Sequence record: OL615013
Strand: one strand, 5' to 3'
From: Shigella phage ChubbyThor
DNA length: 64,000 nt
Part shown: piece after piece, positions 14,467 through 63,976 of the stretch
Layout of the letters: every line of letters begins with the position of its first letter
How positions within the stretch are numbered: the first letter of the stretch is position 1
Notes under the pieces: model-generated
Databases searched by the model: none
The model's input: only the letters and a program-made list of their open reading frames with translations
Told to the model about the DNA's origin: nothing
Program-made: the position numbers and the translations under genes

Positions 14467-14472
14467 GTGGGT

Positions 14473-14979: not shown

Positions 14980-15005
14980 GATATAGTTCCTGCATTTCAA
15001 ATAGA

Positions 15006-15023
15006 CGGGGTAATCATACCCCG
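15006..15023 (-). terminator. GC-rich hairpin (repeat copy 2), terminator-like
   Basis: CGGGGTA / TACCCCG stem, loop ATCA; near-identical to 14447..14466. Confidence 0.45.
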
Positions 15024-15038
15024 CCCAAAGTTATAGAA

Positions 15039-15278: not shown

Positions 15279-15401
15279 GATATAATCTTACCTTTCAACC
15301 TGGTGAACCCCATCGTTCGCCAGTTATTGAATAATAGGATATTCCTTAGAGGAAGTAAACCCCTAAAAGTAAAAATCCCCAACAAACGTTGGGGACTTCT
15401 G

Positions 15402-15728
15402 TTATTTGCGCAGGGCAACCACGAGTTCAGCGAGTTCGCCCATGGTAGGGTCATCGCCTTTACTACCCAGCCAGCCGTCGTCGATTTCGACCTGAAACTC
15501 TTCTTCGAGGTCCATTACAATTTCGATAGCGTCCAGTTCGTCGCCGCCGAGATCCTTCTTGGTGCGGAGACCAGCCAGCTTGTCCAGGGCATCGTTGATT
15601 ACCACTTCGGCATCGACGATCCCTTTGATGCTACTCTTGTCCTCATCACTGACTTCCAGATTCAGATTGTCAGTGGCGTACTGAGCCAGATGACGCATGA
15701 CTTCAACATATGTTGGTTTACTGCTCAT
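15402..15728 (-). CDS. acyl-carrier-protein-like protein with Ser-to-Glu at the phosphopantetheine site
   Basis: KKDLGGDELDAIEIVMDLEEEFQVEI matches the ACP core LGADSLDTVELVMALEEEFG, with E where the modified Ser normally sits. Confidence 0.55.
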   Translation of the reverse strand: MSSKPTYVEVMRHLAQYATDNLNLEVSDEDKSSIKGIVDAEVVINDALDKLAGLRTKKDLGGDELDAIEIVMDLEEEFQVEIDDGWLGSKGDDPTMGELAELVVALRK

Positions 15729-15747
15729 GCTACTTCTCCCAAAGAAA

Positions 15748-15763
15748 GGCGGGTTGCCCCGCC
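15748..15763 (-). terminator. intrinsic terminator after the vWA gene
   Basis: GGCGGG / CCCGCC stem, loop TTGC; minus-strand RNA continues UUUCUUUGGGAGAAG then ATG of the ACP-like gene. Confidence 0.55.
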
Positions 15764-15770
15764 CGTTGGA

Positions 15771-17972: not shown

Positions 17973-18135
17973 CGTTATTGCCTTCTTCAGGGTTGTCTTC
18001 GGCCTCACCTTCCGGCTTGACCAGCATATGTTCAAGGAAATCGCGATTGAGTTCAATCTGACTCATCAGCGTTTCCGATGGGCTAAAGCGGCGGTCGAGG
18101 TTGTCGACGCCCGCACGTTCAAATGGTTTGGCCAT
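17965..18135 (-). CDS. small acidic protein (56 aa)
   Basis: ATG at 18133-18135 next to stop of upstream ORF; 8-nt overlap with vWA start. Confidence 0.35.
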   Translation of the reverse strand: MAKPFERAGVDNLDRRFSPSETLMSQIELNRDFLEHMLVKPEGEAEDNPEEGNNDD

Positions 18136-18136
18136 A

Positions 18137-18496
18137 TCAGCCGCCCTTGACTTCAGTAACGCCAGGGATCGACCGCAGGGCTTGGCGAACATCGGCGACC
18201 TTGTCCTTCTCCACAGTCACCACAATGAACGAGAAGTTCCTTTGTTTACGCCATTTCTTGAAGTGTGAGACAAGCTGTACTTCGTTTTCTTCTGCGCCGC
18301 TTCCCCCTTCTACAGGGACGTAAACGACACCAGATTCAATAACTACATCGGCGTCATCGGGGATATCTGCGTCTACATCTTCGCGATATTCACCATTGAC
18401 TTTGATGCAATGATCGTCGTGCCAAGCGCCGTTCACCCAATATTCATCATCGTGGTAGTACGCATTGAACTCGACACCTTTCATCTTCACAGACAT
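18137..18496 (-). CDS. hypothetical protein (119 aa)
   Basis: ORF track; ATG at 18494-18496. Confidence 0.45.
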   Translation of the reverse strand: MSVKMKGVEFNAYYHDDEYWVNGAWHDDHCIKVNGEYREDVDADIPDDADVVIESGVVYVPVEGGSGAEENEVQLVSHFKKWRKQRNFSFIVVTVEKDKVADVRQALRSIPGVTEVKGG

Positions 18497-18538
18497 CAGG
18501 ATTCCCTCGAAACAGGGGAGTTGCCTCCCCTTCGGTTA

Positions 18539-20203
18539 TCAGATTTGTGATGCCAGTTCTACTACGAGAGGAGCGGCACGGACACGCGCATCTTCCAGAG
18601 TTTGAGTGTTGAAGAACTTGCCGTCACGATACACCAGCTGGTGCTGGTTGTCGGCGTCTTGCACCTGATCAAAGGTGATACCGTCAACCAACACTAGTTT
18701 ACCCTGAGAGTCTTTAATGACTTTAAGGAAACCACGCGCAGACTTTTTAGTCCCGCCTTTGTCGGTCTTCGGCTCTTTGAAGATCTCACGGAATTCGCCG
18801 TTCACCTTACCAGCCGTTGCTTTCACCGCCGTGCCAGTACTGTCACGGGTGTTCATCTGGTAGGTGTAGGAACCGATACCGAACACCACGTTGATGGAAG
18901 CGAAGTTCCGGCCAGCCAGACGACTAAAGATCTGGTCTTCACGTGCCAGGGTGATGGAGTCACCGTAGATCAGACCGATGTGTTCGTCCAACAGGAAGTG
19001 GCCAGTTTCAGTTTGAGTACCGCCAAAGATCTCCCACAGGCGCTGGATAGAGCCGACTGCTTCAGAACGGCTGATGATATTACGGTCGTCTGCCATCAGA
19101 GAGTTGATCGTGCCTTCGCCTGTGATCAGGTGATAGGTGTTCGTCTCTTCGATGTGAATGACTTCAGTGCTGCTAGACACGCCGCTGATGTTCAGCGTGG
19201 CGCGGTCTTTGAACCCCTCAATGCGGTAGCCGCCGACGATATGAACTGGGTCGCCCGAGTCAGGGCGGATCACGACTTTACCGTTACGCGCCATGATAAT
19301 GTCTTTCAGGCGAGGGAGATAGTCGTCGATGACCTGCCAGTAATCCCACGCATCAGACACGATGCTGACGATGCCATCAGGATACACGTCCTGCACCAGG
19401 CGGCGGAAGGTTTCGAATTCGCCATCCTTCGTACCCATACACATCACGGCGTGTTCGGTAGCCGCAACAGAACCAGCAACGACATAGTCTTCGTCGATGT
19501 CTGCGCCATAATACTCTTCTACGAAGTCCAGGGCAGGGTTGGTATCGGTGCCTTTGAAGAACACCAGATGACCGGAACCGGAAGACGCCGCGTCATGCCA
19601 TCCACTCATGCCACGGAAGGAGAAGTCGTGGCCTTGGTAGTCGATGAACCAATGGTCCGGCGACACGCCTGTAGCGAGGGCAGCTTTCACCATCAGTGCC
19701 TTGTAATGCAGGGCGATGGTGGCGTTCGTCATCGGCTTCCAGATCTCAGAGCTGAACACAGTCTCCAGATAGTTGGTCAGCCAGTAGAACTCCGGCAGGG
19801 TGTTGAACATCACATACACCGGAACGCCATATGGGCACATGGTGCCTTCAGGCAGAGCACGGACTTCGATAGGCAGGTAGCCGAGGTCATGCAGGGCTTC
19901 AATATGCTCTGTGCCGACGCGGCCTGGACCCAGGACTTTGTTCATGCGACGGGCATACTTCTTCAACACCTTGGCCTTTGGGCGCTGGAAGAATGCTTCG
20001 TCAAACAGTTCGTGGAACCAGGTCATGAAGCCCTGGATGCCCCAGACCACCACGCCGTTCTTCGGCAGGTGAGAGTTGAACAGTTTGTTGGAGCGCGGAG
20101 TTCCGTTGGAGAACACCAGCTCGCTGCCTTCAGGGAACTGATAGATGTGCCCTGATTTGTAGAAGTCGATTGCATGGATTGGGTCTAAGTGGCGCATGCT
20201 CAT
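18539..20203 (-). CDS. nicotinamide phosphoribosyltransferase family protein (NadV/Namat-like)
   Basis: NAMPT-like motifs DFSFRGMSG, VSDAWD, RPDSGDP, GLIYGDSIT; 4-nt overlap with upstream PRPP-synthetase-like gene. Confidence 0.8.
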   Translation of the reverse strand: MSMRHLDPIHAIDFYKSGHIYQFPEGSELVFSNGTPRSNKLFNSHLPKNGVVVWGIQGFMTWFHELFDEAFFQRPKAKVLKKYARRMNKVLGPGRVGTEHIEALHDLGYLPIEVRALPEGTMCPYGVPVYVMFNTLPEFYWLTNYLETVFSSEIWKPMTNATIALHYKALMVKAALATGVSPDHWFIDYQGHDFSFRGMSGWHDAASSGSGHLVFFKGTDTNPALDFVEEYYGADIDEDYVVAGSVAATEHAVMCMGTKDGEFETFRRLVQDVYPDGIVSIVSDAWDYWQVIDDYLPRLKDIIMARNGKVVIRPDSGDPVHIVGGYRIEGFKDRATLNISGVSSSTEVIHIEETNTYHLITGEGTINSLMADDRNIISRSEAVGSIQRLWEIFGGTQTETGHFLLDEHIGLIYGDSITLAREDQIFSRLAGRNFASINVVFGIGSYTYQMNTRDSTGTAVKATAGKVNGEFREIFKEPKTDKGGTKKSARGFLKVIKDSQGKLVLVDGITFDQVQDADNQHQLVYRDGKFFNTQTLEDARVRAAPLVVELASQI

Positions 20204-53004: not shown

Positions 53005-53026
53005 AAGGGCGGGGGAACCCGCCTTT
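53005..53026. terminator. bidirectional terminator between convergent genes
   Basis: GGGCGGG / CCCGCC stem, loop GGAA, U-rich flanks on both strands. Confidence 0.55.
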
Positions 53027-53028
53027 CC

Positions 53029-53781
53029 TTATCCCATATAGAAGTCAATCGGGTATTGCTGGCCAGTACGAAGTTCTTCCTCTAAACGCTCGATCTCCGC
53101 TTCAGCCTCGCTGAACATAGTATCACCATCCAGCTCAATACCGCCAGGGAGACGGATGCCTCTTGCCTTCTTCAGCACCTCTGCCCAACGGCGTTTTACC
53201 AGAGCTGTTGCATACGCCTTCAGCCACATGTCATTCCATGCTTCTTCGTTCCCTTCTACCTCGGGGTCAATGTTCTGATAACACTTGAACGCCAAAGCCT
53301 CGTCCTTTGTCAGGGCGAATTGAGGGTAGAGTTTGCGCTGGAATTTCTTGTACACGAAGGTGCGCTTCACGTTCAGCACACTGGTGATGTCGGACAGGCG
53401 CTGCTGCATTGAGACATAATCGATCAGGCGGATAGACACCAGCGCTGACTTCGGCACCAACATAGCCTGCGCCATTTGCCACTGAGGGGTTGCCCAGTTA
53501 CCGATAGATTCAATTGGTGGTCCTGGAATGACTTCGGTGACGTCGTCGATATCTTTCGGGAATTCGATGTAGCCCTTCGTGATAGTGTCGTCATCAACGA
53601 CATGGACGAAGAACGCATCCTGGCTACCGTCGCGGTGATACTCCCAGAATTTCTGTAGAGCGTCATCGACAGCGTCGGACACCTGTGATGGGTCGAGGTT
53701 GATCTGAATTACGGGTGCCCCCAATTTCTTGAGGATGTAATTCATAAACCCCTTGCGGTCTCTGATAGAATTAACGGCCAT
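53029..53781 (-). CDS. 13: neck protein (T4 gp13-like)
   Basis: N-terminal ILKKLGAPVIQINLDPSQV resembles T4 gp13 ILRRLGAPIINVELTPDQI; track start is GTG, moved to ATG at 53779-53781. Confidence 0.7.
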   Translation of the reverse strand: MAVNSIRDRKGFMNYILKKLGAPVIQINLDPSQVSDAVDDALQKFWEYHRDGSQDAFFVHVVDDDTITKGYIEFPKDIDDVTEVIPGPPIESIGNWATPQWQMAQAMLVPKSALVSIRLIDYVSMQQRLSDITSVLNVKRTFVYKKFQRKLYPQFALTKDEALAFKCYQNIDPEVEGNEEAWNDMWLKAYATALVKRRWAEVLKKARGIRLPGGIELDGDTMFSEAEAEIERLEEELRTGQQYPIDFYMG

Positions 53782-54109
53782 TGACGTTCCCCTTACCACT
53801 CTGGAGATCAGATACCGTAATCCGCAGAGTTCGCACGTCGTCGGACAGACTGCTGCTATTGAGTTTTAATTCAGCAACGTTCTGCTTGACGTAGTTGACG
53901 TCTGTGTTCAATACAGCGATCTTCTCACTCATATCGTTGACTTTGACAAGGATCTGGTCAACCTTGTTAGAATCCCGCTCAACCACATCAAGACGGTTTT
54001 CGAACTTACCCATCATCCAAACAACCGAGCCAACAGAGACTATCGCCGCCGTCAGCACCCCGGTGAGGATCGCTTTCACATCGATCACAGTGTTAGTTTG
54101 AGTTGTCAT
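53771..54109 (-). CDS. small membrane-anchored coiled-coil protein (112 aa)
   Basis: Start moved to ATG at 54107-54109 with CAGGAGG SD; N-terminal TM VLTAAIVSVGSVVWMMG then heptad-like region. Confidence 0.45.
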   Translation of the reverse strand: MTTQTNTVIDVKAILTGVLTAAIVSVGSVVWMMGKFENRLDVVERDSNKVDQILVKVNDMSEKIAVLNTDVNYVKQNVAELKLNSSSLSDDVRTLRITVSDLQSGKGNVNGR

Positions 54110-54341
54110 CTTGGCCTCCTGACGGGAGTTCAATCCCGAGGTGTTCCGCCATGAGTTGTACCGTCGCTGTCAGTTGATCGATTTGCGCTGCCTGCGCTGC
54201 AATAGTTCTGTCCTTTTCTTCCTGATTACGACGGGCGTTCAGAGCCGCTAAACCAGCAGCGCTGTCTGTGCAGATGATAGCCCCAGGGCAAGAGCTACTT
54301 CTCATCATCGATGCATGCCCCTGTACTTTTACACCACGCAT
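54093..54341 (-). CDS. small coiled-coil protein (82 aa)
   Basis: ATG at 54339-54341 with AGAGGA SD; 17-nt overlap with downstream gene. Confidence 0.4.
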   Translation of the reverse strand: MRGVKVQGHASMMRSSSCPGAIICTDSAAGLAALNARRNQEEKDRTIAAQAAQIDQLTATVQLMAEHLGIELPSGGQDDNSN

Positions 54342-54360: not shown

Positions 54361-54378
54361 GGCGGGGTTGCCCCCGCC
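54361..54378 (-). terminator. GC-rich hairpin after the large structural gene
   Basis: GGCGGGG / CCCCGCC stem, loop TTGC; no strong U-tract. Confidence 0.4.
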
Positions 54379-54391: not shown

Positions 54392-57300
54392 TTATGCCAG
54401 AGCAATCAAACGGAAATCTTTGAATGATGGCGGCGCTGTACGGTTGCCTCTCACCAGCAGGCGGATCTTCAGGCCAACGAAAGGATTGGTGCTGTCCACA
54501 GTCTTGTCATATTCGTATTCAAAGAATGTAGAACCATCGTTGACCAGAGGGGATGTTGGAGTCACGGTTTCCCATGCGACATCATCCATCTCCTGACCAG
54601 CGCGGAGCAGTTTCACCTGTACAGTCATTGAAGACTGAGAAGGCAGCATCGCACCGAAGTATTGCTTCAGGGTGGTGCAAGGGTTATCGAAGCCGATATC
54701 CTTGGTCACATAACTGAACACGTCTTCAAACGGATCCACCCCGTAGGTGTTGAAGATGACAGTGAAATCATCTCCATCGATCATCGGAGCCGTGTACACG
54801 TTGCTTTCGTTACGCGTCATTGTCGCCCGCACCTGGAAGTCACCCACTTGGCGATAGATGCCTTCCGTCGGCAGAGACACGTCCGTATCGGATTCGAACT
54901 CAGCCCAATCAGAGAATGAGTTGGAGGTCGCATCGCGGTAACGGTATTCCAGTTTCAATACAGATCCTTCCAGGGCTGAATTGGTGACGCTTGCGTAGAA
55001 CATGTCTACCAAGTAGTTGCCCAGGAAAGAAGCCTCTTCACCACCAATCTGCCCGTCGGAGTCGGCGTTGGAACTCAGAACAAATTTGAACGTCGTGAAC
55101 GTCGCGTCTGTCACAGTGTGTTGGGCGTTCAGTTGCTCAGGAGTGAAACCACAACCACCCGTCAGACCAGACAGGGTAACACTTTCACCCGCAGTCAGGC
55201 CATGCCCCGGCGCGTACACTGTAACAGTTGAAGAACCGTTGACACATTTCACGGTGTTCAGACCCAGAGGGCGGATCTTCGGACCGACTTTAGCATCGAA
55301 GGTCACGATGTTTGAACCAGCGGAGAAGTTACAGCGATACACACGGAACTTCATATCGGCAGTCTGGTTTGGAGTCCAAGTCGTGCCGTTGGAAGACGTG
55401 AAGAACACGCCAGTGTACGGCTGCTTGGCGATGTACTCGTTGGTCAGCAAGTTCTTTTTGCCCATCTCTGCGATGTATGCGTTGTAGTCCTGAGTGTTGG
55501 CCAGGAGCACGATCGCGAACTCAGTCTGCGCCTGCAGATACACAGGATAATCAAACTTGAACATCGTTGGTACAGAAGAGTCTGTGGAGACGGAAACTTC
55601 TGATGGGTTCAAAGTCTTACGAGTGACCACAGTCGTCGCAGGCAGGCCATTACTCATCTCACGGATTTCCAGAGTAATCGGGATATCACGGGACTTGGTG
55701 GAGAAGAAGACTTCAATCCCTTCGATGTACTCACCACCAATATTGGTAGCAACCATGAAGGATTGAGCAATCGGGTCTTTCCACTTCGCAACTTCAACCG
55801 TCTCCGTTTTGTTTTCGGTGGACTTGGTCGCAGTGTAACCCAGGACGCGAGTGTTGACATAGGTCTTTTGAATGCCCTGTTTCTTACCGAAGGATTTGTG
55901 AACCGCTTCAGCATTGGTCAGGGTATCATCAGCAGACTTGCTGTCCACAGGGCTGTCAGTCAGACGGAAGACGTTGTCGCCCGTGTTGAACTTAACAGTC
56001 TCGTTCTGAGGCACTGCGAACACGCCTTTGATATTACCGTTGGCATCAGTGTTCAGCGCGCCACCCAGTACGCCACCACTTGGAGTACAGTACGCGCTCA
56101 CATCACGCCCTGAGAAGAACGGATATACACGAGTGAACGGACGCAGGCCTGTGGCTTCGAAGTTGATGTTCGTTTTGCGCATGTATGGAATAACCTGCGT
56201 TTCAACGATCTGCTCGCCAGTCAGGGTAGTCGTCGTCTTGTCGGTGTACGTGTACGTGGTGACGTCACGGGTAGACACAGTCGTGCGGTAGCGGTAGCCC
56301 CACCATACGCCGCCTGCGCCATGTGGTTCCCACACACGCTCAGACACAGACACAGTACGCCATGTGCCATACACAGAACCTTCTTTGATCGCGCCGCGTG
56401 TGTTGATCGTTTCGTTGATCACACGTGGAGCAACATAGTAGTTCTCGAACCAGTAGTCGGTGGTCGGGTTCAGCTTCAGGAAACCTTCCCAGTTGAATAC
56501 CGCATATGGGTTCACGTTGATGGTCGTGGTCGCATAATCCTGGCGCACAGAGATCTCACGGGTGTAGTTGCATACAACCATGCCATCCTGAACGTTGTTC
56601 CAGCCTACTGGCGTCAGGTCAACCGCATTCTGCTGAACGAACGGGCGTAGGCGACCATTGTCAGTATCGATTGAACCTACCCAGTCAGCAGACAAATCGT
56701 CGATCAGACGGAAGTCTTTGAACGGGTCGGCAGCGATACCGTTTTTGAAGCGCGGGTTGCCAGTGATCGGGTCGAACACCTGCTGAGTCATAGCTGAAGA
56801 TTCCAGCTGTGACAGTGAGGTGTAGTATTCAACATTGGAGATACGGGTCTCCAGTTTACCGATATCACGCATCGTGTAACGACGGTTGTCGATGGTACGA
56901 ATCTGAATATCGTCGATGTTGGCCGTGTAAGGCGGGATCATCAGTTCGTACAGACGCATGCCGTTGTCTGGGATCGCAGGCGAAGCCAGGTTGTTGGAAC
57001 TCACACCACGCGCCACATTGAACACGCCGTTGTCGGCCAGATACACAGCATCAATACGAGGCAGGTAGTACTCCGCATCGAGGACGATAGCAGTGTTCGG
57101 GCGAACCATATCAGTGTCGGAAGCGCCGCTGGTGATCTTAGGACGGAAGTCCAGGCAGTCTGCCAGGCCATACACAGTACCAGAACTGGACGAAACATAG
57201 TTCGGAATGTCTGGGTAATCGATGGAAGAATAGGAATCCGCTGTGAAGAAATCACCAGAGCTGTGAGCGAAATACTGATACACCACCGTGAACGTCCCTG

Positions 57301-59230
57301 AAATGGCTCCAGTGCCCGATAACAGGTTAGAACGATAGTATGCAGCATCACGCTGGCCGCCGTCCAGAGTGAAGTTAGAGGTGACGTCAGCGCCACTTGC
57401 ATTCTTCACGCTGACCAGCTTGTAGCCGTCGTGGTTGTTCAGCTGTACGCTGGCCGCCGAAGTGAACGTCACAGTCTCGGTGACTTCGGTAACAGTCTTG
57501 GTCTTGATCGTCGCTGTGGTGCGGACCATCAGTGCCAACAGGTTGATAGACTGGTTGGCGTACCCCGCACCCAGGGAAATCTGCAGTGCTGAACCGACCG
57601 GAGTACCAGTCAGGGACAGTCCCGAAGAGATATCAAACTGAGCTGCAGTGCCGTCTGCCTTCGCCGCTGAGTACAAAGAGAATTCAGGGCTGAAGCTGTA
57701 ACCCAGAGGAGCAGAGATAGAGCCTGCGCCTGCCGCGTTCAACGTGATCTTGTTTGACCGCAGGACGGTGTAGTTGATGTCGATGGTCCCCGTAGGAGCC
57801 AGCGTCTTCACACCAAATACAGGCAGAGGGAAGATCAGGTCAATTGCTGAACTCTGGCTGAACTGATTAGACTCCAGTTCGCAAGAGAACATTGTTGTAC
57901 CGCTTTCTTCGTATGCAACTTTGGTGACAGTACCCATGTCCCCAGTGACAACGAGGTCGCGCATATACAGACGGAATTCCGCTCCAGAACGTTCTGCTGA
58001 AATCAGGAGGGCAGTGGCCTGGACAGCGCTGGATGCGTTCAGGAACTTGTAACGGATTGTGCGAGAGACAACCGGAACCCCTTTGGAGTTCTTGGACACC
58101 AGATAGTTGCCAGTCGCAACAGCCACAGGGTTGTTGTTCAGGGTATCGGTGTCACGGGCTTTATCAATAGTGACCAGCTCTTCGCCGAGGTTTTCGATAC
58201 GACGGCCACGAACGTAGGAGATCCCTGGCTTCATGACCGCCACGAATTTGCTTGCGTCACCACCTTCGGCAGGAGTATAAACGCCACCGTTGTTGTTCTG
58301 TTTCAGATGTTCACGCAGGTCGATCTGATGAGTGGAGACGTTGTAATCCCCGTTGGTCTCATAAGTGCGCTGCGCCATACTGTCTTCGAGGATGTTGTAG
58401 GTGGACTGGGTCACCATGGACTGAATGCGCCCATCTTTGACTTTCGCCAGCTCTACGAAGTCCGCCACTTCTTCATCATAACCGAAGCGTGACAACACCA
58501 GGTCCACGCGGAAACGGTGCGCGCCAGGGGCTTTGGAGTTTGGCGTTCCCTGAGCATTGGAGAATAGGCTTTCATCTTCTACTTCAGTGACGATGGTCTC
58601 TGTTACTTTGAAGCCCACCCGGTGTGAAGTAGAGTTGGAAGCGTTGTCGACGATCAGAGTTGCTGGCTCAACGTCCAGGAACATACCGCGGACGAAGTAA
58701 ACGCCTTTGGTCATACGAGCAACGATAGAGCCACCCACAGTCGCAGCAATACCATAACCGATACGAATGAAGTTATCGTTCACATCGTAGGTGTTGAAGT
58801 ACAGGTTGTCGCCGACGCCAAAGCCGTCAGATGAACCACTTTCAGTCATCTCGAGGATAGCGTACATCGTATCCGGTTCTGAAACATAGCGCTCCAGGGA
58901 CAGCACACGCGCCTTGGCGTTGTTGTCTTTGCCCAGGACGTACAGTTCTGCAATGTTCTCCAGGTCGGTGAACTCGGTGCCGCCAGCCAGAGTGAATTTC
59001 ATAGACACGGCTGTATTGGTGATTGTCAGGCCACCGGGGATAACCATCGAACCGTCTTTGAACAGATGGTTCCCGAGTTTCTCCAGCTGATCCTGGAAGA
59101 TGGTCTGCATCTGGTTCAGTTCACGGGTCTGAACTTTGATAGGAGCCGGACGAAACAGGATGCGTGAAAAACGCTTCTCTGGATTCCAATCATCCCAGTA
59201 TGGGCGGCGGTTGAGGTTCATTTCTTGCAT
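54392..59230 (-). CDS. very large virion structural protein (about 1612 aa), likely tail/baseplate or fibre component
   Basis: Single long ORF in late block; start moved to ATG at 59228-59230 (MQEMNLNRRPYWDD...); Thr/Ser/Asn/Gly-rich beta-type composition. Confidence 0.6.
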   Translation of the reverse strand: MQEMNLNRRPYWDDWNPEKRFSRILFRPAPIKVQTRELNQMQTIFQDQLEKLGNHLFKDGSMVIPGGLTITNTAVSMKFTLAGGTEFTDLENIAELYVLGKDNNAKARVLSLERYVSEPDTMYAILEMTESGSSDGFGVGDNLYFNTYDVNDNFIRIGYGIAATVGGSIVARMTKGVYFVRGMFLDVEPATLIVDNASNSTSHRVGFKVTETIVTEVEDESLFSNAQGTPNSKAPGAHRFRVDLVLSRFGYDEEVADFVELAKVKDGRIQSMVTQSTYNILEDSMAQRTYETNGDYNVSTHQIDLREHLKQNNNGGVYTPAEGGDASKFVAVMKPGISYVRGRRIENLGEELVTIDKARDTDTLNNNPVAVATGNYLVSKNSKGVPVVSRTIRYKFLNASSAVQATALLISAERSGAEFRLYMRDLVVTGDMGTVTKVAYEESGTTMFSCELESNQFSQSSAIDLIFPLPVFGVKTLAPTGTIDINYTVLRSNKITLNAAGAGSISAPLGYSFSPEFSLYSAAKADGTAAQFDISSGLSLTGTPVGSALQISLGAGYANQSINLLALMVRTTATIKTKTVTEVTETVTFTSAASVQLNNHDGYKLVSVKNASGADVTSNFTLDGGQRDAAYYRSNLLSGTGAISGTFTVVYQYFAHSSGDFFTADSYSSIDYPDIPNYVSSSSGTVYGLADCLDFRPKITSGASDTDMVRPNTAIVLDAEYYLPRIDAVYLADNGVFNVARGVSSNNLASPAIPDNGMRLYELMIPPYTANIDDIQIRTIDNRRYTMRDIGKLETRISNVEYYTSLSQLESSAMTQQVFDPITGNPRFKNGIAADPFKDFRLIDDLSADWVGSIDTDNGRLRPFVQQNAVDLTPVGWNNVQDGMVVCNYTREISVRQDYATTTINVNPYAVFNWEGFLKLNPTTDYWFENYYVAPRVINETINTRGAIKEGSVYGTWRTVSVSERVWEPHGAGGVWWGYRYRTTVSTRDVTTYTYTDKTTTTLTGEQIVETQVIPYMRKTNINFEATGLRPFTRVYPFFSGRDVSAYCTPSGGVLGGALNTDANGNIKGVFAVPQNETVKFNTGDNVFRLTDSPVDSKSADDTLTNAEAVHKSFGKKQGIQKTYVNTRVLGYTATKSTENKTETVEVAKWKDPIAQSFMVATNIGGEYIEGIEVFFSTKSRDIPITLEIREMSNGLPATTVVTRKTLNPSEVSVSTDSSVPTMFKFDYPVYLQAQTEFAIVLLANTQDYNAYIAEMGKKNLLTNEYIAKQPYTGVFFTSSNGTTWTPNQTADMKFRVYRCNFSAGSNIVTFDAKVGPKIRPLGLNTVKCVNGSSTVTVYAPGHGLTAGESVTLSGLTGGCGFTPEQLNAQHTVTDATFTTFKFVLSSNADSDGQIGGEEASFLGNYLVDMFYASVTNSALEGSVLKLEYRYRDATSNSFSDWAEFESDTDVSLPTEGIYRQVGDFQVRATMTRNESNVYTAPMIDGDDFTVIFNTYGVDPFEDVFSYVTKDIGFDNPCTTLKQYFGAMLPSQSSMTVQVKLLRAGQEMDDVAWETVTPTSPLVNDGSTFFEYEYDKTVDSTNPFVGLKIRLLVRGNRTAPPSFKDFRLIALA

Positions 59231-59264
59231 TTTGATGCTCCATCGATAGGTGCCATTATAGAGA

Positions 59265-59271
59265 TATTTAG
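59265..59271 (-). promoter_or_regulatory. CTAAATA late-promoter-like motif upstream of the large structural gene
   Basis: minus-sense TACTAAATATC about 35 nt upstream of ATG 59230. Confidence 0.4.
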
Positions 59272-59300
59272 TATACAGCCAACCGAGGAATAGAAAGAAA

Positions 59301-59322
59301 AAGCCCCTCATCTGAGGGGCTT
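59301..59322 (-). terminator. intrinsic terminator after tailspike-like gene
   Basis: AAGCCCCTCA / TGAGGGGCTT inverted repeat; minus-strand RNA continues UUUCUUUCUAUU. Confidence 0.65.
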
Positions 59323-59328
59323 TGTCTA

Positions 59329-61113
59329 TCAAGCGGAAGCATTCCATTGGCCAGCATTGATCACCCATGTGCTCGTTACTTTTGAATACACCATTTTCAC
59401 GAGATTCATTTTCGTGGTGGCGGTGTTAGCGCCAGTCACATCAACAGGGACACCCGCTATGCTCAATGAAGCAATGTTTGAACCTCTCAGTAAAAACGTC
59501 AGCTCCATACCATCATATGGCGTACCAGTAAATGCGATGTTGGAACCAGAAGAAACGTTTCTTCGATAGCACCCATAACCGCTGTTTATGTCGACAGAGT
59601 CAGTTGTGAGCTGTAATGGCAATTTTCCACGACTTAGTTTACATGCCGTTACAACGCCGAGATCATCAATGCCTCGACTTGCACCCCAACGTGCGATGTT
59701 GACTATGTGGCCAGTCACACCAGCGTCTTGCGCACCACCAATGTCGAAGAAACCTCCAGCCCTTGTACCCCATATCGGCTCATCAATCAAGCTGTTGGTG
59801 GAGCCAGTTACACTATAACCATGTGCGAGGGTTCCTTGGCTTGGAGAAGAGTGTGTACAATCTCGGAATGTAGCATCTTGAGAACCACTGATGCGGACAT
59901 CAGAGATACTATTGTTCTCGTAATACATTCCATATACCTTTGTTCCCTTGGCCTGATCCAAGAAACCATACTTCGTGGTATTCTGGCTGAACCCGTTAAC
60001 AAAACAGACTGCTTCTGTGGGGAATGTTGTGGTGTAATCCCAAGAGGTCCCGCCGTCGGTGGAGTGTCTTACGATAATACCATAATCTGGCATATCCACT
60101 TCTGGTGCACCGGAATAACCGTCAAATCCTGTTATCACAATAGCATTGGCACCGTTCTGTACTATTAACCGACTAGAACCAGCCCCGCCGCCGATAACCT
60201 CGCAACCGTCTATTTTCAAACCGTAGCACAAAGTCCCTATCTCTATCCCGACATTATTAATGGCCGTCCCCATGTCTACCCACATCATATCCAGATGTCC
60301 ATGGTTCCTCCAATATTTGGCTCTGAAAGCGACGCAACCCGTTTTACCATTCAATGATATTCTGATATTGTGTAATTTGCAGTTTCTCACTGCATTGCCA
60401 CCAGAACGGGAAGGGTCAATCGTGAGAACACCGACATTATTTCCACCAGCCAAGAATAATGCACCGGAATGTGCATAAATTTCAGAGTTAGGATAAAACG
60501 CCAACGCCTGGCCAGTTACCGTATAGTTGCCAGGAAGAAACTGGAATGTCCCACCCTGGGATAATTTAGTTTGTATAAGAGACTGAGACATCGAAGGGTC
60601 GATGACAGTTAGACGATAAAACCCAGAGTATAACTCATCTCTCAATGCATCTGGATCCAATTTCACCCAGTTAGAACTTGACAACCCACCAGTATTGGCA
60701 ATGGTGCTCCCAGCATTTACAGATTTGGGTAAAGTACCACCCCAACGGTAAAGGCTTGTACCATCAGAAACGACTTCATTTCTAACACGTATCGTGAACC
60801 CCGAATCGAAGTTTTCGACCAAAGTTACAAATTCCTTCCGAAGCACTGCAAGAACCCCCAGGTCTACAGTGCCCGTATTGTGTACGAGAATGCCGTCTGT
60901 CAGGCTGGTGATGGTAGCGCCAGCGGGCAGGTTGGAAGGCAGTGCATAGGAGCGCTGAGTGACCTTATCGTAGATCACCTTGTAACCAGTCAGGGTGGAT
61001 CCTGGTTTAGCATAGAGAACCTCAGACTTCTTGCACCCAAACTTACGAGCAATGGAGTCTTTGTTTGTCTCCTTAGAGACAGAGCCTTTCGGCTGTGAAA
61101 ATTGCGGATTCAT
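59329..61113 (-). CDS. tailspike-like protein with right-handed beta-helix region (putative depolymerase)
   Basis: Repetitive G/N/V/I-rich segments (NAVRNCKLHNIRISLNGKTGCVAF ... GIEIGTLCYGLKIDGCEVIGGGAG) typical of pectate-lyase-fold tailspikes. Confidence 0.6.
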   Translation of the reverse strand: MNPQFSQPKGSVSKETNKDSIARKFGCKKSEVLYAKPGSTLTGYKVIYDKVTQRSYALPSNLPAGATITSLTDGILVHNTGTVDLGVLAVLRKEFVTLVENFDSGFTIRVRNEVVSDGTSLYRWGGTLPKSVNAGSTIANTGGLSSSNWVKLDPDALRDELYSGFYRLTVIDPSMSQSLIQTKLSQGGTFQFLPGNYTVTGQALAFYPNSEIYAHSGALFLAGGNNVGVLTIDPSRSGGNAVRNCKLHNIRISLNGKTGCVAFRAKYWRNHGHLDMMWVDMGTAINNVGIEIGTLCYGLKIDGCEVIGGGAGSSRLIVQNGANAIVITGFDGYSGAPEVDMPDYGIIVRHSTDGGTSWDYTTTFPTEAVCFVNGFSQNTTKYGFLDQAKGTKVYGMYYENNSISDVRISGSQDATFRDCTHSSPSQGTLAHGYSVTGSTNSLIDEPIWGTRAGGFFDIGGAQDAGVTGHIVNIARWGASRGIDDLGVVTACKLSRGKLPLQLTTDSVDINSGYGCYRRNVSSGSNIAFTGTPYDGMELTFLLRGSNIASLSIAGVPVDVTGANTATTKMNLVKMVYSKVTSTWVINAGQWNASA

Positions 61114-61143
61114 GTGAATCTCCTGTTGTTATTCTCAATGGAA

Positions 61144-61161
61144 AAGCCCCCGAAGGGGCTT
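61144..61161 (-). terminator. terminator hairpin between the two tailspike-like genes
   Basis: AAGCCCC / GGGGCTT stem with CGAA tetraloop. Confidence 0.5.
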
Positions 61162-61164
61162 AGC

Positions 61165-63870
61165 TTAGTTAACGGAATCGAGAGAAGAAATCAATTTCAA
61201 ATTGATCTGTACCTGAGACTCCGCAGTTACAGCAGGAATAGCCAGACCACCAGCATTAAGCCCAAAATTCGCAATAAAGCCAGTAGTTGAAGATCTCACT
61301 ACGTCAAATCCTGTACCGCCTGAGCCGGTGCTTGCAAATTGAGTCTGCTTAGCACCGAAAGCATCACCCGTACCAGCTATTGCTACTTGCCAAATACCAC
61401 GGAATAACGTAGCCGCAATATTAGCTGCCGCAGCGCCAGCAGCACGAGTGATCTTCATGTTGTCGTAGAACCAGACTTCCTGAATTGTAGCAATGTTACG
61501 AGCACCGAAACTAACAACTTGGTTCCCTTCAAAGCTGTAGTTAGTTCGGTTATCAACAACAAAATCACATAACATACAGGTCTGGGTAGACACATTAAGA
61601 TCTAAGGTATTTCCATGTGCAATGAGTGACTTAGGAATACCTTGTACGCGGAAACCCGCAGAACGGTATGTAAGATTCAACGTATTTAATTGCTTGATAC
61701 TGTTAGCCATCAGTTTCACACGTTGACCTCGGTATACCATAGTGTTAGCTGCACCTGCGTTAACAATAATACCTTCGGCATTGTTATTAAGCGTATCGCA
61801 CTTCAGCACTACAGTATTATGGCTAATATCAATATCCTGGAACACAGCATAAGTTGCATCCCCTGCTCCGGTACTGATTGCAACACCATCAAAAGCTCGG
61901 AGTTCGCAATAGTTATTATTGATTTTAACAAAAGGATCTGGGTAAGTAGCCTGGGTTGCTTCACCCCCACCACCAACATCAATGCTCCTTGTATACTTGC
62001 CTCCAATTAACAAACCAGTAGTAAAACTGGCAGGTATGTTACGAGAACGCACATAGTTATTGGAAATGATTAAGTTATAAGGTTCATAGTTCGGTGCCCA
62101 ACCCGACCCACATTTAGCATAAATACCTACAACACCATGTTCTAAACACTGGTTATTGGTAATGATCGCCTGACCGCCACCGTGGAAGTCAATACACTTA
62201 CGGCGACAGTTACGAATCATGTTTTCACTGATGGTTACATTACGAATGCGGCGGTTACGTCCATGCGTGATTCCGTAACCAGGATCGTAACTGGCATTCA
62301 GGGTATCATCACCATTCGGGTGACCAATATCTTCAATGTTATTTCCCAGATAAACTAAGCGATAACCAGACAACACATAAATTCCTGCACTGTAACAGTT
62401 ACGAATGTAACACTTGCTTACCATCACACCATCTGGAACATCAGATTCTGTGGTGTAGTCGGCGCTACCGTAAGCTACGGCTGCATTACGGATACCAATA
62501 CCTACAGCACCATAGTTAAAGCCTGTGATGCGGCAACGATTGATTAAAATGCCACGACAAGCACGCTGAACTTTAATACCACAAGCCCAGCTACCGATGT
62601 AACCATTTAAGAACTCACCCCATTTGTTCTGCCAACCTGCTGCTTGGGATCCATCAGCATTATAATTAGGGAATTGTCCTTGAGTACCGTCATAAGCACC
62701 ACTGGTATAGTTGCTGGTATCAAGCCCATTATTAGGTGCAAGTACCATAGCGCTGTCATACCCGAAACGCTCTTCGCCTTTTTCAGCATAACCAGTAGTA
62801 ACATCGATAGCAGGAAATACACCTGGCCCCTGAATTGCTAACTCTACAGTCACGTTTTCACAAGCAATAAGCGCAAGTGCATCCATACCGTGAGTTTTTA
62901 CAATTAAAGTACCGTTGTAAATTTTGATGTTCTTCTTGCCTACTAAAGCCAAGCAAGGACTAAAGTTGTGAGTACCGTCAGAAAAATCAGGTTCAGATGG
63001 ATATTTAGTAGCCAAGTCTGGATTTTTACTGATCAGGTACGTACCACCATAGAGATTAATATCTCCAGTGGATGCATCAAAATAATTTTGAAGCGCTTTA
63101 GTATCATCAGCCTGACCATCAGCTTTTGCTTTAAAATCTTTAGGGCTTAAGTTCTCATTGCCTTTATCCTGGATAGTACGTGCTACCGTATCCGCACCAG
63201 GGGCTTTGTAGCCAACTAAAGATGAACCTGTAGATTTGGCTAAATCTGCACGAAGGGTGTCATCTACGCTTTCTAAAGCCTCATTAATAGTGTTAAGTTC
63301 TTCCTGTACCGTGTTACCGGAAGTTGTACCAATCAGACTTGCGCCTCCATCGGAAGAGAGCGCCAGGTAATTCTGTTTGATGGACATCTCAGCCACAACC
63401 CAAACACCAGCAGCCGGAGATCCATTCAGGAACGACACCACACCAGTCGTTCTGTTGTAGGTGTAATCAACCCCAGGAACCTGGAACTTCCCGTCAATGT
63501 GCAGAGATTGTACACCATATGTCGTGAAGTCTGGGGTGAATGAGGTCTCGCTGCCAACTGCCTGGAACTTGTAGATGCGAATCCCGTTTTCATAATCTTC
63601 TGGTGACAGGATCTTGTCAAATAGGCAGTAAACGACGTCATCTGCTTCAAGAGATCGACCGAGGTTGACTGTGTTCCCATCGATTTCATAGTTGTCAACA
63701 GGAACCTGGACGCCGCCGTTGATGGTGATGAATCCCGTAACAGGATAGAACGGGAGGGAGATAAACGTCTCTCCACCCGTTGCTGTGTAAGTGTATGGAA
63801 TCTGGTGCGGGGCTGTTACAACCGCTCCAAAGATGCTCTCGACGTTTCTGGTCATTTGAAGATACCCCAT
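61165..63870 (-). CDS. tailspike-like protein with right-handed beta-helix region (putative depolymerase)
   Basis: PbH1-like repeats (IRNCYSAGIYV, ISENMIRNCRRKCIDFHGGGQAIITNNQCLEHGVVGIY, IISNNYVRSRN); 901 aa. Confidence 0.6.
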   Translation of the reverse strand: MGYLQMTRNVESIFGAVVTAPHQIPYTYTATGGETFISLPFYPVTGFITINGGVQVPVDNYEIDGNTVNLGRSLEADDVVYCLFDKILSPEDYENGIRIYKFQAVGSETSFTPDFTTYGVQSLHIDGKFQVPGVDYTYNRTTGVVSFLNGSPAAGVWVVAEMSIKQNYLALSSDGGASLIGTTSGNTVQEELNTINEALESVDDTLRADLAKSTGSSLVGYKAPGADTVARTIQDKGNENLSPKDFKAKADGQADDTKALQNYFDASTGDINLYGGTYLISKNPDLATKYPSEPDFSDGTHNFSPCLALVGKKNIKIYNGTLIVKTHGMDALALIACENVTVELAIQGPGVFPAIDVTTGYAEKGEERFGYDSAMVLAPNNGLDTSNYTSGAYDGTQGQFPNYNADGSQAAGWQNKWGEFLNGYIGSWACGIKVQRACRGILINRCRITGFNYGAVGIGIRNAAVAYGSADYTTESDVPDGVMVSKCYIRNCYSAGIYVLSGYRLVYLGNNIEDIGHPNGDDTLNASYDPGYGITHGRNRRIRNVTISENMIRNCRRKCIDFHGGGQAIITNNQCLEHGVVGIYAKCGSGWAPNYEPYNLIISNNYVRSRNIPASFTTGLLIGGKYTRSIDVGGGGEATQATYPDPFVKINNNYCELRAFDGVAISTGAGDATYAVFQDIDISHNTVVLKCDTLNNNAEGIIVNAGAANTMVYRGQRVKLMANSIKQLNTLNLTYRSAGFRVQGIPKSLIAHGNTLDLNVSTQTCMLCDFVVDNRTNYSFEGNQVVSFGARNIATIQEVWFYDNMKITRAAGAAAANIAATLFRGIWQVAIAGTGDAFGAKQTQFASTGSGGTGFDVVRSSTTGFIANFGLNAGGLAIPAVTAESQVQINLKLISSLDSVN

Positions 63871-63891
63871 AGAGGATTTGCCAATATGGGG

Positions 63892-63898
63892 TATTTAG
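63892..63898 (-). promoter_or_regulatory. CTAAATA late-promoter-like motif upstream of tailspike-like gene
   Basis: minus-sense CACTAAATACCCCATATT about 22 nt upstream of ATG 63870. Confidence 0.4.
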
Positions 63899-63976
63899 TG
63901 ATAATGGATATCAGCCGGAACCGCCACCTTGAGAGAATAGATCTTTCATACCACACCTCAATTTTATTCTAAGAAT

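What the first reader, a model, noticed from the sequence alone, without database searches (positions are those of the whole stretch)
54392..59230. Giant (about 1612 aa) structural protein at the position of the T4 baseplate and fibre genes
A single ORF of roughly 4.8 kb lies immediately upstream of the tailspike genes and downstream of gp13 and two small ORFs. It has beta-rich, Thr/Ser/Asn-rich composition and none of the T4 gp12 sequence I recall. Its own CTAAATA site and terminator flank it. It could be a fused baseplate or fibre protein, or an adhesin.
Basis: inference. Interest (0 to 1): 0.45.

Follow-up and report, generated by a model that had tools for sequence, protein, structure and literature searches.

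The report
Known phage baseplate "tripod" protein VriC
The giant gene is real, but it is the well-known, misleadingly named "virulence-associated protein VriC" of Ackermannviridae phages, which matches end to end the "tripod" baseplate protein whose structure was solved in Staphylococcus phage 812, so it is an ordinary tail part and not a new kind of protein.

Summary
One intact 1612-codon ORF lies at 54392-59230, on the minus strand. It has a GGAG ribosome-binding site, a CTAAATA late promoter 35 nt upstream, Thr/Ser/Asn-rich composition and a predicted mostly-beta fold.

The window comes from an Agtrevirus (Ackermannviridae). The gene is 96.6% identical in DNA to Shigella phage Ag3 orf00206. 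The literature knows it as vriC/VrlC, the conserved marker next to the tailspike cluster, and it is abundant in virions.

The most likely function is inferred, not shown. It probably forms trimeric complexes on the baseplate periphery, perhaps the "prongs" seen by EM. Their lectin/CBM-like domains would bind a conserved cell-surface glycan after the tailspikes clear the O-antigen, anchoring the baseplate and helping to trigger contraction.

It is not a fusion of T4 baseplate or fibre proteins, not a host-range fibre, not an enzyme and not a virulence factor. Its position in the virion and its docking partner remain undetermined.

Novelty: already known. Interest: low.

The parts
54392..59230 (-). 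vriC / VrlC coding sequence: 1612 aa plus stop. DUF4815-family baseplate 'tripod' protein homologue.
   Evidence: ORF and translation. Pfam DUF4815 E=4e-60, 204 bits against a cut-off of 30. PHROG_358 at 1657 bits. 96.6% nt identity to Ag3 orf00206. Profile against the PDB chain of 812/K ORF65, E=4e-123. hhalign probability 100, E=1.9e-72, aa 2-1606 against 1-1145 of 1152.
59265..59271 (-). CTAAATA late-promoter motif, 35 nt upstream of the start codon.
   Evidence: 10 copies, all on the minus strand, 3.35 expected. LIMEstone1 annotates a 'putative late promoter' at the equivalent place.
59238..59241 (-). GGAG ribosome-binding site, 7 nt before ATG 59230.
   Evidence: Read directly from the sequence.
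59300..59323 (-). Intrinsic terminator (10-bp stem, then a T-run) that ends the preceding tailspike gene. It marks the 5' boundary of the vriC transcription unit.
   Evidence: sequence.
59042..59230 (-). aa 1-63: conserved N-terminus with the first long helix (aa 32-56), corresponding to tripod 'spine' helix 1.
   Evidence: Aligned to K ORF65 aa 1-61 with 24 identities. Helix in the AF2 model. Invariant P10, D14, Q34, R36, E37, Q42, Q48, G60.
58694..59041 (-). aa 64-179: insertion 1, a beta domain about 95 aa longer than in the 812/K tripod.
   Evidence: hhalign block map. All-beta in the model. Present in all relatives of about 1600 aa, gap fraction 0.04.
58124..58693 (-). aa 180-369: region shared with K ORF65 aa 83-251. 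Contains the second helix (aa 280-290).
57224..58123 (-). aa 370-669: expanded beta region, 300 aa against about 111 aa in K ORF65 (insertion 2, about 190 extra residues).
   Evidence: pLDDT about 85-95.
55841..57223 (-). aa 670-1130: the best-conserved core shared with K ORF65 aa 363-787. It includes the third long helix (aa 787-815, motif DNRRYTMRDIGKLE), the NVNPY motif, and very long beta hairpins that probably correspond to the 'fiber' domain.
55310..55789 (-). aa 1148-1307: beta-sandwich domain that starts with the DPIAQSF motif (K ORF65 aa 788-948). CBM/PHR-like; corresponds to the tripod base/fin region.
54983..55309 (-). aa 1308-1416: insertion 3, a small beta-barrel domain resembling a domain of phage endosialidases. 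It is absent from the 812/K tripod.
54395..54982 (-). aa 1417-1612: C-terminal all-beta domains aligned to K ORF65 aa 968-1145 (tripod leg/anchor/hook region). The C-terminal motif KDFRLIALA is strongly conserved.
54361..54378 (-). Conserved GC hairpin (GGCGGGG-GCAA-CCCCGCC) between the vriC stop and the orf82 start. It has no U-run, so it is not a canonical terminator.
   Evidence: -18.7 kcal/mol, z=-4.5. Not reported by the terminator scan. The intergenic region is 98% identical in Ag3 and LIMEstone1.
53008..54341 (-). Probable co-transcribed downstream genes: orf82 (54093-54341, PHROG 'virion structural protein'), orf120 (53771-54133, coiled coil) and gp13-like neck protein (53029-53799), followed by the terminator-like site at 53023-53008.

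Best explanation
The ORF is vriC (also written VrlC), the conserved late gene of Ackermannviridae next to the tailspike cluster. It encodes an abundant virion protein of the DUF4815 family. This protein is the Gram-negative-phage counterpart of the 'tripod' baseplate protein of Herelleviridae (phage 812 gp119 = phage K ORF65).

Shown here:
- homology and fold similarity over the whole length;
- the same order of elements: three long 'spine' helices, then long beta hairpins, then CBM/lectin-like beta-sandwich domains;
- three lineage-specific inserted beta domains;
- late-promoter control.

Shown by others: the protein is present and abundant in virions.

Inferred by analogy with phage 812:
- the protein forms homotrimers that dock on the periphery of the baseplate, probably the 'prongs' seen below Ackermannviridae baseplates;
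- the tailspikes first bind and cut the variable O-antigen or capsule, after which the glycan-binding domains of VriC contact a conserved surface structure;
- the trimers then rearrange, anchor the baseplate, and contribute to the change in the baseplate that releases sheath contraction.

In this reading VriC fills the role that the gp12 short tail fibres play in T4. Ackermannviridae lack gp9-gp12.
For: Identity. 96.6% nt identity to Ag3 orf00206. 53 of 60 Ackermannviridae records carry it at full length, annotated 'virulence-associated protein VriC', 'VrlC' or 'unknown structural protein'. LIMEstone1 ORF157 is noted as 'confirmed structural protein'. Sajous1 gp140 gave 311 spectra, one of that virion's five most represented proteins (PMC10892097). 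vriC is used as the marker that flanks the tsp cluster (PMC8432352).

Family. Pfam DUF4815. K ORF65 is itself DUF4815 at E=1.5e-205.

The PDB chain is the tripod. Its name is 'ORF65' and its length is 1152 aa, as for PhageK_118. The gene order scaffold (1019 aa), segment (173 aa), tripod, RBP1 (640 aa), coupler (124 aa), RBP2 (458 aa) matches gp117-gp123 of 812 (PMC13433997). The chain is shorter in the post-contraction entries, as expected when the anchor and hook domains are unresolved.

Domain-level agreement with the 812 description. Matches to the Cwp84 lectin-like domain and to CBM61.

Conserved rather than host-specific. Conservation is even along the protein, with no hypervariable tip. 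By contrast, 0 of 48 records cover at least 80% of the neighbouring tailspike region.

Prior literature. The review PMC11721090 already proposes VriC as the prong component and notes its resemblance to A511/phi812 baseplate proteins.
Against: No structure or labelling experiment places VriC in an Ackermannviridae virion. Nothing of the kind turned up in the paper searches I ran (among them).

The 812 docking partners are not detectable next to vriC. Phage K ORF63 (arm scaffold) and ORF64 (arm segment, PF25691) have no significant match among the Ag3 proteins from gp6 to orf00203, in Pfam or in the PDB sequence searches of the two proteins tested. How VriC attaches is therefore unknown.

Receptor binding by the tripod is itself only 'putative' in the 812 paper.

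The LysM-like 'hook' proposed to bind peptidoglycan in 812 is not recognisable here. There is no Pfam LysM hit and the predicted C-terminus is all-beta.

The structure models are monomers, so trimerisation was not tested.

Co-transcription with neck gene 13 and the 'neck protein' label on some cyanophage homologues leave a small possibility of another location.
Confidence: 0.72

Rival explanations
1. A purely architectural baseplate component. VriC trimers would form the prongs or a platform that supports the branched tailspike complex and the baseplate geometry, with no receptor binding of their own.
For: Sequence conservation is very high and even across phages with different hosts. LPS alone is reported to be enough for DNA release from the kuttervirus Det7 (review PMC11721090). 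Receptor binding by the 812 tripod is only putative.
Against: The C-terminal half consists of CBM-like and lectin-like beta-sandwich domains. In 812 these domains turn to face the cell wall, and density connects them to it. Keeping about 600 aa of glycan-binding folds is hard to explain for a spacer.
Confidence: 0.17
2. A primary host-range tail fibre or adhesin. This is the first reader's fibre/adhesin idea, and some database records label it 'tail fiber protein'.
For: It is large, beta-rich and Thr/Ser/Asn-rich. It sits next to the tailspikes. A few records call it 'tail fiber protein' or 'adsorption-associated tail protein'.
Against: There is no fibre-like repeat and no beta-helix: no Pfam Beta_helix hit, and no fibre or spike was the best fold match. 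The protein is 83-99% identical across phages of Shigella, Salmonella, Dickeya, Klebsiella and E. coli, whereas the tailspikes vary. No hypervariable distal domain exists. Host range in this family is attributed to the TSPs (PMC8432352, PMC10791037).
Confidence: 0.05
3. A neck, collar or whisker component, because it is transcribed together with gp13 and some cyanophage homologues are labelled 'neck protein'.
For: vriC, orf82, orf120 and gp13 probably form one operon. The order vriC, gp13, gp14, gp15 is kept in distant marine contigs L004 and L033. S-MbCM25 carries a 'neck protein' label.
Against: The only solved homologue is a baseplate protein. In T4-type gene order the neck genes simply follow the baseplate and fibre genes. 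The 'neck' labels are unverified annotations (the PHROG paper, lists the conflicting labels).
Confidence: 0.03
4. An enzyme (a depolymerase or sialidase-like hydrolase), or a bacterial virulence factor carried by the phage, as the name 'virulence-associated protein' suggests.
For: Weak similarity to phage endosialidases. The database name. One biocontrol study listed vriC among 'putative virulence genes' (PMC6783827).
Against: The endosialidase similarity covers only a small beta-barrel domain of about 70-140 aa (aa 1329-1403 against 4hiz 190-259). It does not cover the catalytic beta-propeller. No catalytic family was hit in Pfam. The protein is a virion component of strictly lytic phages, driven by a late promoter. 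The label 'VriC/VrlC' is only an inherited database annotation and no virulence function has been tested: the one study that lists it as a virulence gene states that the protein's origin and function are unclear, and the PHROG paper lists mutually conflicting labels for this family.
Confidence: 0.02
5. An artefact: several genes joined by a frameshift or an assembly error.
For: None, apart from the unusual length.
Against: There are no internal stops. The full-length gene is present in 53 independent phage genomes. 395 phage records cover at least 80% of the protein. More than 100 metagenomic proteins of 1560-1730 aa align over 100% of it. The homology to the 1152-aa tripod is collinear from end to end.
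Confidence: 0.01

Closest known systems
VriC / VrlC of Ackermannviridae (Shigella phage Ag3 orf00206, Salmonella phage P46FS4 'virulence-associated protein', Dickeya phage LIMEstone1 ORF157)
   Same: It is the same gene. 96.6% nt identity to Ag3, with only 19 aa differences. 98.8% aa identity to P46FS4. 89.6% nt identity to LIMEstone1. Same length (1612 aa), same position between the tailspike cluster and gp13, and the same late promoter.
   Different: Only patchy substitutions relative to Ag3, clustered in aa 1-300 and aa 1001-1100. The adjacent 901-aa tailspike carries a different receptor-binding module.
Tripod protein of Herelleviridae: Staphylococcus phage 812 gp119 = phage K ORF65 (PDB 9EUF, 9EUK, 9TIC and others; PMC13433997). 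Homologues occur in Listeria, Bacillus SPO1-like and Enterococcus phages.
   Different: About 460 aa longer, through three inserted beta domains (aa 64-179, within aa 370-669, and aa 1308-1416). The host is Gram-negative. No detectable homologue of the arm scaffold or arm segment proteins that carry the tripods in 812. No recognisable LysM-like hook. Copy number (12 trimers in 812) and position are unknown here.
VrlC / 'virion structural protein' of T4-like cyanomyoviruses (S-PM2, Syn9, Syn33, S-RIM and others) and of other Gram-negative-host phages: full-length ~1600-aa relatives in Vibrio phages, Delftia PhiW-14 and Ralstonia RSP15, and partial (71-79%) matches in Methylophilales (Melnitz-3) and Rhizobium (RHph_I1_9) phages
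   Same: Same family, and the same place in a T4-type structural gene order. The ~1600-aa relatives (Vibrio, PhiW-14, RSP15, marine MAG contigs) align over 100% of the protein at 31-40% identity and contain all three insertions.
   Different: Cyanophage proteins are about 2000 aa or more and align over only 55-72% of the query, so their C-terminal parts differ. None has been characterised structurally.
T4 gp12 short tail fibre (functional analogue only)
   Same: Same region of the gene map. The proposed role is the same: a conserved, baseplate-bound trimer that makes the second, irreversible contact with the cell surface. This is an inference.
   Different: No sequence or fold similarity was detected. 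gp12 is a thin fibre, whereas VriC is a multidomain globular or tripod-shaped protein.

Membership tests
Pfam PF16075 (DUF4815) / PHROG_358 | Score above the curated Pfam gathering threshold, and a PHROG profile match | tested here: met
   DUF4815 at 204.1 bits against a cut-off of 30, E=4e-60. PHROG_358 at 1657 bits; PHROG_877 E=6e-146.
Ackermannviridae VriC/VrlC | Near-identical full-length orthologue in the conserved position between the tailspike cluster and gp13 | tested here: met
   100% coverage and 96.6% nt identity to Ag3 orf00206. 53 of 60 records are full length. The gene order matches Ag3 and LIMEstone1.
Ackermannviridae VriC/VrlC | Component of the virion | not testable with these tools
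   From the literature and database records only. LIMEstone1 ORF157 is noted 'confirmed structural protein'. Ag3 orf00206 is noted 'phage structural protein'. Sajous1 gp140 gave 311 spectra (PMC10892097).
Herelleviridae tripod protein (812 gp119 / K ORF65) | Collinear sequence homology over the whole protein | tested here: met
   hhalign probability 100, E=1.9e-72, aa 2-1606 against 1-1145 of 1152. hmmsearch E=4e-123 with 4 stretches.
Herelleviridae tripod protein (812 gp119 / K ORF65) | Fold similarity to the solved structure | tested here: met
Herelleviridae tripod protein (812 gp119 / K ORF65) | Domain set: three spine helices, flap, fiber, base and fin (CBM-like), leg (Cwp84-lectin-like), anchor, hook (LysM-like) | tested here: inconclusive
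   Three long helices are predicted (aa 32-56, 280-290, 787-815), together with long hairpins. CBM61 and Cwp84-like matches were recovered. No LysM signal was found and the C-terminus is all-beta. Domain boundaries of 812 were not available for a one-to-one mapping.
Herelleviridae tripod protein (812 gp119 / K ORF65) | Homotrimer docked on loops of an arm scaffold protein (gp117) along arms built of arm segment protein (gp118, PF25691) | tested here: inconclusive
   No significant match of K ORF63 or ORF64 to any Ag3 protein from gp6 to orf00203. No PF25691 hit among the 8 neighbouring proteins scanned. PDB sequence searches of Ag3 orf00214 and orf00215 were uninformative. Short docking loops could not be found by sequence in any case. 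Trimerisation was not modelled.
Herelleviridae tripod protein (812 gp119 / K ORF65) | Large conformational change on tail contraction | not testable with these tools
   Needs structures of virions with extended and contracted tails.
T4 gp12 short tail fibre, or T4 peripheral baseplate proteins gp7/gp9/gp10/gp11 (the 'fused baseplate or fibre protein' idea) | Detectable sequence or fold similarity to the T4 proteins | tested here: not met
Tailspike / depolymerase (right-handed beta-helix) | Beta-helix catalytic domain | tested here: not met
   No Beta_helix or pectate-lyase Pfam hit, unlike the neighbouring 901-aa tailspike, which has one. The endosialidase similarity is confined to a small beta-barrel domain.

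The most novel reading that the evidence does not exclude
The tripod module described in 2026 as part of the Gram-positive-specific baseplate of Herelleviridae may in fact be a very widespread baseplate device. The core region retrieves about 4800 clusters at 50% identity, and 1696 phage genomes carry a match. In Ackermannviridae, T4-like cyanophages and many marine myoviruses it would replace the T4 gp9-gp12 periphery. In Ackermannviridae, the VriC trimers (the 'prongs') would be the conserved secondary receptor binder and contraction trigger acting after the tailspikes. They would undergo the same leg-unfolding rearrangement. The three inserted domains, one of them an endosialidase-type beta-barrel, would adapt the protein to the outer membrane or LPS core, and it would dock on a so far unidentified non-homologous partner.
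Probability: 0.35. Interest if true: 0.5.

Novelty: already known. Interest (0 to 1): 0.2.

Why it matters
There are three modest consequences.

1. Annotation. The label 'virulence-associated protein VriC' is misleading. At least one biocontrol study listed vriC among putative virulence genes of otherwise suitable lytic phages (PMC6783827). The end-to-end match to a solved baseplate protein shows that it is a tail component.

2. Ackermannviridae biology. The family lacks T4 gp9-gp12, and what forms the 'prongs' and what triggers contraction after the tailspikes act are still open questions. The solved 812 tripod now gives a concrete template and a testable model.

3. Breadth. The family is very large: 4817 clusters at 50% identity, and 1696 phage records from cyanophages to staphylococcal phages. 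Any function established for it would therefore annotate a conspicuous 'unknown' of phage genomics. PHROG_358 was used by the PHROG authors as their example of a family that could not be annotated.

Tried and rejected
- Longer ORF from ATG 59368 (1658 aa). Rejected, because the extension overlaps the terminator and promoter and no homologue has it.

- 'DUF4815' in an arabinofuranosidase paper (PMC10509167). This turned out to be a misprint for DUF4185 and is irrelevant.

- Search for the PDB code 9EUF in papers. Nothing was found. The chain was identified instead through the 812 paper's data-availability list and the phage K gene order.

- Search for a cryo-EM structure of an Ackermannviridae baseplate. 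None was found in the library. The A511 paper (PMC6356063) is not held.

- Search for the docking partner. Ag3 orf00214 and orf00215 were compared with PDB sequences. orf00214 gave only chance ubiquitin and HA2 coiled-coil hits and orf00215 gave none. Pfam gave only 'Baseplate_wedge' for the 284-aa protein and sub-threshold hits for the 403-aa protein. phmmer of phage K ORF59-68 against Ag3 gp6 to orf00203 found only tripod-VriC as significant.

- Bacterial genomes. All 39 loci found were metagenome-assembled bins, most likely binned phage contigs. There was no clear prophage or cellular context, and I did not pursue it.

- Enzyme idea from the endosialidase hits. Rejected, because only a small non-catalytic domain matches.

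- Weak Foldseek hits of the N-terminal model to botulinum-toxin binding domains and SdrC (probability <=0.23). Treated as noise.

Full report

Yes. The ORF listing shows one long open frame on the minus strand, 54392..59368. Its translation has no internal stop.

- A GGAG lies 7 nt upstream, at 59241-59238.
- The 46 codons further upstream overlap an intrinsic terminator (59323-59300) and the motif CTAAATA (59271-59265).
- Every homologue begins with the same MQEMNLN-type N-terminus and is about 1600 aa long.

The protein is 1612 aa. Thr (10.2%), Ser (7.9%) and Asn (6.3%) sum to 24.4%, against 17.7% for the other long minus-strand open frames in the window. The two AlphaFold2 models together give 48.7% strand and 7.7% helix, so 'beta-rich' also holds.

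CTAAATA occurs 10 times in the window, always on the minus strand, against 3.35 expected. None of 100 shuffles reached 10. This fits its use as the late-promoter motif of this phage group. LIMEstone1 annotates a 'putative late promoter' at the equivalent site.

Three corrections are needed.
- The gene is on the minus strand. In the direction of transcription the order is tailspike genes, then the giant gene, then two small ORFs, then gp13.
- The clear terminator lies upstream of the promoter and ends the preceding tailspike gene.
- Downstream there is only a stable hairpin without a U-run at 54378-54361 (-18.7 kcal/mol, z=-4.5). The terminator scan does not report it. The next terminator-like site is after gp13, at 53023-53008. 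The gene therefore probably heads a late operon: vriC, orf82, orf120, gp13.

**2. Where does the window come from, and is the gene known?**

Megablast of the gene finds 60 phage records, all Ackermannviridae. 53 of them cover at least 80% of the query.
- The best is Shigella phage Ag3 (Agtrevirus) orf00206, at 96.6% identity over 100%.
- At the protein level there are only 19 differences from Ag3.
- Identity to Salmonella phage P46FS4 'virulence-associated protein' is 98.8%.

The records call it 'virulence-associated protein VriC', 'VrlC protein', 'hypothetical protein', 'tail fiber protein' or 'unknown structural protein'.

In the literature vriC is the conserved marker used to locate the tailspike cluster in Ackermannviridae genomes (PMC8432352; PMC10791037). 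In phage Sajous1 its product gave 311 spectra and was one of the five most represented virion proteins (PMC10892097).

The gene is therefore already known and named. A frameshift or assembly artefact is excluded.

**3. What is it?**

Pfam places it in DUF4815 (E=4e-60). There is also a sub-threshold Phage_spike_2 match at aa 1351-1421. PHROGs places it in PHROG_358. The PHROG authors used this very family as their example of one with contradictory labels and no assignable function.

A sequence search of all PDB chains returns a single protein. It is a 1152-aa 'DUF4815 domain-containing protein / ORF65', present in 15 entries (9EUF, 9EUK, 9TIC and others), with E=9e-52. With a profile of 43 family members the E-value is 4e-123.

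These entries belong to the cryo-EM study of the Staphylococcus phage 812 baseplate (PMC13433997). I identified the chain as the tripod protein gp119 on three grounds.
- Phage K ORF65 (PhageK_118) is 1152 aa long.
- It lies in the order ORF63 (1019 aa), ORF64 (173 aa), ORF65, a small ORF, ORF66 (640 aa), ORF67 (124 aa), ORF68 (458 aa). This matches arm scaffold gp117, arm segment gp118, tripod gp119, RBP1 gp121, the 124-residue coupler and RBP2 gp123.
[quoted passage not shown] It is shorter in the post-contraction entries (821-908 against 1082 residues), as expected because the anchor and hook domains are unresolved there.

hhalign of the family profile against K ORF65 gives probability 100 and E=1.9e-72. 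1103 columns align, spanning aa 2-1606 of the query and 1-1145 of 1152. The homology therefore runs from end to end.

**4. Structure.**

I built two AlphaFold2 models with a 43-sequence alignment.
- aa 1-1134: mean pLDDT 80.3.
- aa 1001-1612: mean pLDDT 86.6.

- PHR domains and several carbohydrate-binding modules, including CBM61.

The 812 paper independently describes the tripod's base and fin domains as CBM16/CBM61-like and its leg domain as Cwp84-lectin-like. The domain-level picture therefore agrees.

The N-terminal model has just three long helices, at aa 32-56, 280-290 and 787-815. This fits the three 'spine' helices of the tripod. It also has very long beta hairpins at aa 924-1013 and 1105-1133, which probably correspond to the intertwined 'fiber' domain.

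**5. Differences from the solved tripod.**

The block map of the hhalign alignment shows three insertions that account for most of the extra 460 residues.
- aa 64-179: about 95 extra residues.
- Within aa 370-669: about 190 extra residues.
- aa 1308-1416: about 90 extra residues. This is the domain that resembles the small beta-barrel of phage endosialidases and Pfam Phage_spike_2.

All three insertions are present in every ~1600-aa relative in the alignment, with gap fractions of 0-0.04. They therefore define an old subfamily that includes Ackermannviridae, Delftia phage PhiW-14, Ralstonia phage RSP15, Vibrio phages and many uncultured marine phages.

No LysM-like hook can be recognised. The C-terminal 160 aa are predicted to be all-beta.

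**6. Distribution.**

tblastn finds the family in 1696 of 50,697 phage records. By first word of the organism name these are Synechococcus 377, Staphylococcus 342, Bacillus 246, Salmonella 164, Vibrio 73, Enterococcus 70, Listeria 54 and others.

The core region, aa 700-1320, retrieves 4817 cluster representatives at 50% identity, 1963 of them at E<=1e-30.

In species-representative genomes, all 39 loci found were metagenome bins. In two of them (L004, L033) the order vriC homologue, gp13, gp14, gp15 is kept.

**7. How it most likely works.**

Shown:
- late-promoter control;
- full-length homology and fold similarity to the tripod;
- glycan-binding-type domains.

Shown by others: the protein is a virion component and is abundant there.

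Inferred from 812:
- homotrimers are attached to the baseplate periphery;
- on contact with the cell their leg, base and fin domains rearrange and the C-terminal domains reach the cell surface;
- this anchors the baseplate and helps to release the central spike and to open the wedge ring that triggers the sheath.

For Ackermannviridae, the review PMC11721090 already suggests that VriC forms the 'prong-like structures' under the baseplate and may aid host recognition or control DNA ejection.

Two of my results fit a conserved second-step binder better than a host-range determinant.
- Conservation is even along the protein, with no hypervariable tip.
- The gene is full length in 53 of 60 records, while no record covers 80% of the adjacent 4.5-kb tailspike region.

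The family lacks T4 gp9-gp12. VriC is therefore the obvious candidate for the gp12-like role. That remains an inference.

**8. What is not explained.**

The 812 tripods sit on docking loops of the arm scaffold protein, along arms built of the arm segment protein. Neither has a detectable counterpart among the Ag3 proteins from gp6 to orf00203 (phmmer; Pfam scan of 8 of them; PDB sequence searches of orf00214/orf00215). Of the phage K baseplate periphery, only the tripod is shared.

The docking partner, copy number and exact position of VriC in Ackermannviridae are thus unknown. The paper searches I ran turned up no cryo-EM study of such a baseplate (among them).

**9. Rivals.**

- A purely architectural role cannot be excluded (about 0.17).
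- A primary host-range fibre is unlikely, given the conservation and the absence of fibre or beta-helix folds.
- A neck location is suggested only by operon neighbourhood and unverified labels.
- An enzymatic role rests only on a small non-catalytic endosialidase-like domain.
- The 'virulence' label is only an inherited database annotation with no tested function behind it. It has nevertheless led one study to flag such phages.

**10. Verdict.**

It is not a fusion of T4 proteins and not a fibre.

The gene is already known, and its resemblance to A511/812 baseplate proteins has been noted before. What this analysis adds:
- the explicit end-to-end mapping onto the tripod structure solved in the 812 baseplate study (PDB entries released 2025, paper published 2026);
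- the three subfamily-specific insertions;
- the finding that the tripod's carriers are not conserved.

Interest is low.

Noticed in passing
window 54361-54378 (minus strand): A GC-rich hairpin (GGCGGGG-GCAA-CCCCGCC; -18.7 kcal/mol, z=-4.5) lies between the vriC stop and the orf82 start. It has no U-run. The 70-nt intergenic stretch is 98% identical in Ag3 and LIMEstone1, although the vriC coding sequence is only about 90% identical to LIMEstone1. It may be an RNA-stabilising, RNA-processing or attenuating element rather than a terminator.
   Followed up: partly
window 54392-59230, compared with L002 (Ag3) 14001-18839: The 166 nt differences from Ag3 are patchy. 103 fall in aa 1-300 and 25 in aa 1001-1100. 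There are none in aa 401-700. The downstream proteins orf82, orf120, gp14 and gp15 are 100% identical to Ag3. This looks like short mosaic recombination patches inside vriC.
   Followed up: partly
window 61165-63870 (minus strand; 901-aa tailspike): In this tailspike only a ~600-nt stretch at the 5' (N-terminal) end of the gene and the short upstream spacer resemble Ag3 (84% over 63305-63910). The rest, including a Beta_helix domain, has no counterpart in Ag3. No phage record covers at least 80% of the 59329-63870 tailspike region. The phage therefore carries a swapped receptor-binding module relative to its closest relative.
   Followed up: partly
window 54093-54341 and 53771-54133 (minus strand): Two small genes are probably co-transcribed with vriC. 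The first is an 82-aa protein in PHROG_4322 ('virion structural protein'). The second is a protein of about 112-120 aa with weak coiled-coil-type Pfam hits; its LIMEstone1 counterpart is annotated 'coiled coil'. Either could be an assembly factor or a partner of VriC. A space of about 600 nt between the vriC homologue and gp13 is also present in the distant contig L004.
   Followed up: partly
window, whole (CTAAATA at 437, 32044, 35938, 42218, 42574, 48476, 52753, 59265, 63002, 63892): All ten CTAAATA motifs lie on the minus strand, against 3.35 expected on both strands together. This suggests that the window is transcribed leftwards from a series of late promoters.
   Followed up: no
window 59231-59368 (minus strand): The mechanical ORF extends 46 codons upstream of the real start and overlaps the end of the 594-aa tailspike gene (59329-61113), its terminator and the vriC promoter. 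An automatic gene caller that picks the longest ORF would mis-annotate the start.
   Followed up: yes
L004 8374-10502 and L033 9127-12447 (metagenome bins labelled Glaciecola and Hyphomicrobiales): Contigs binned into bacterial MAGs carry a VriC homologue followed by gp13-, gp14- and gp15-like genes. They are almost certainly phage contigs mis-binned into bacterial genomes.
   Followed up: no
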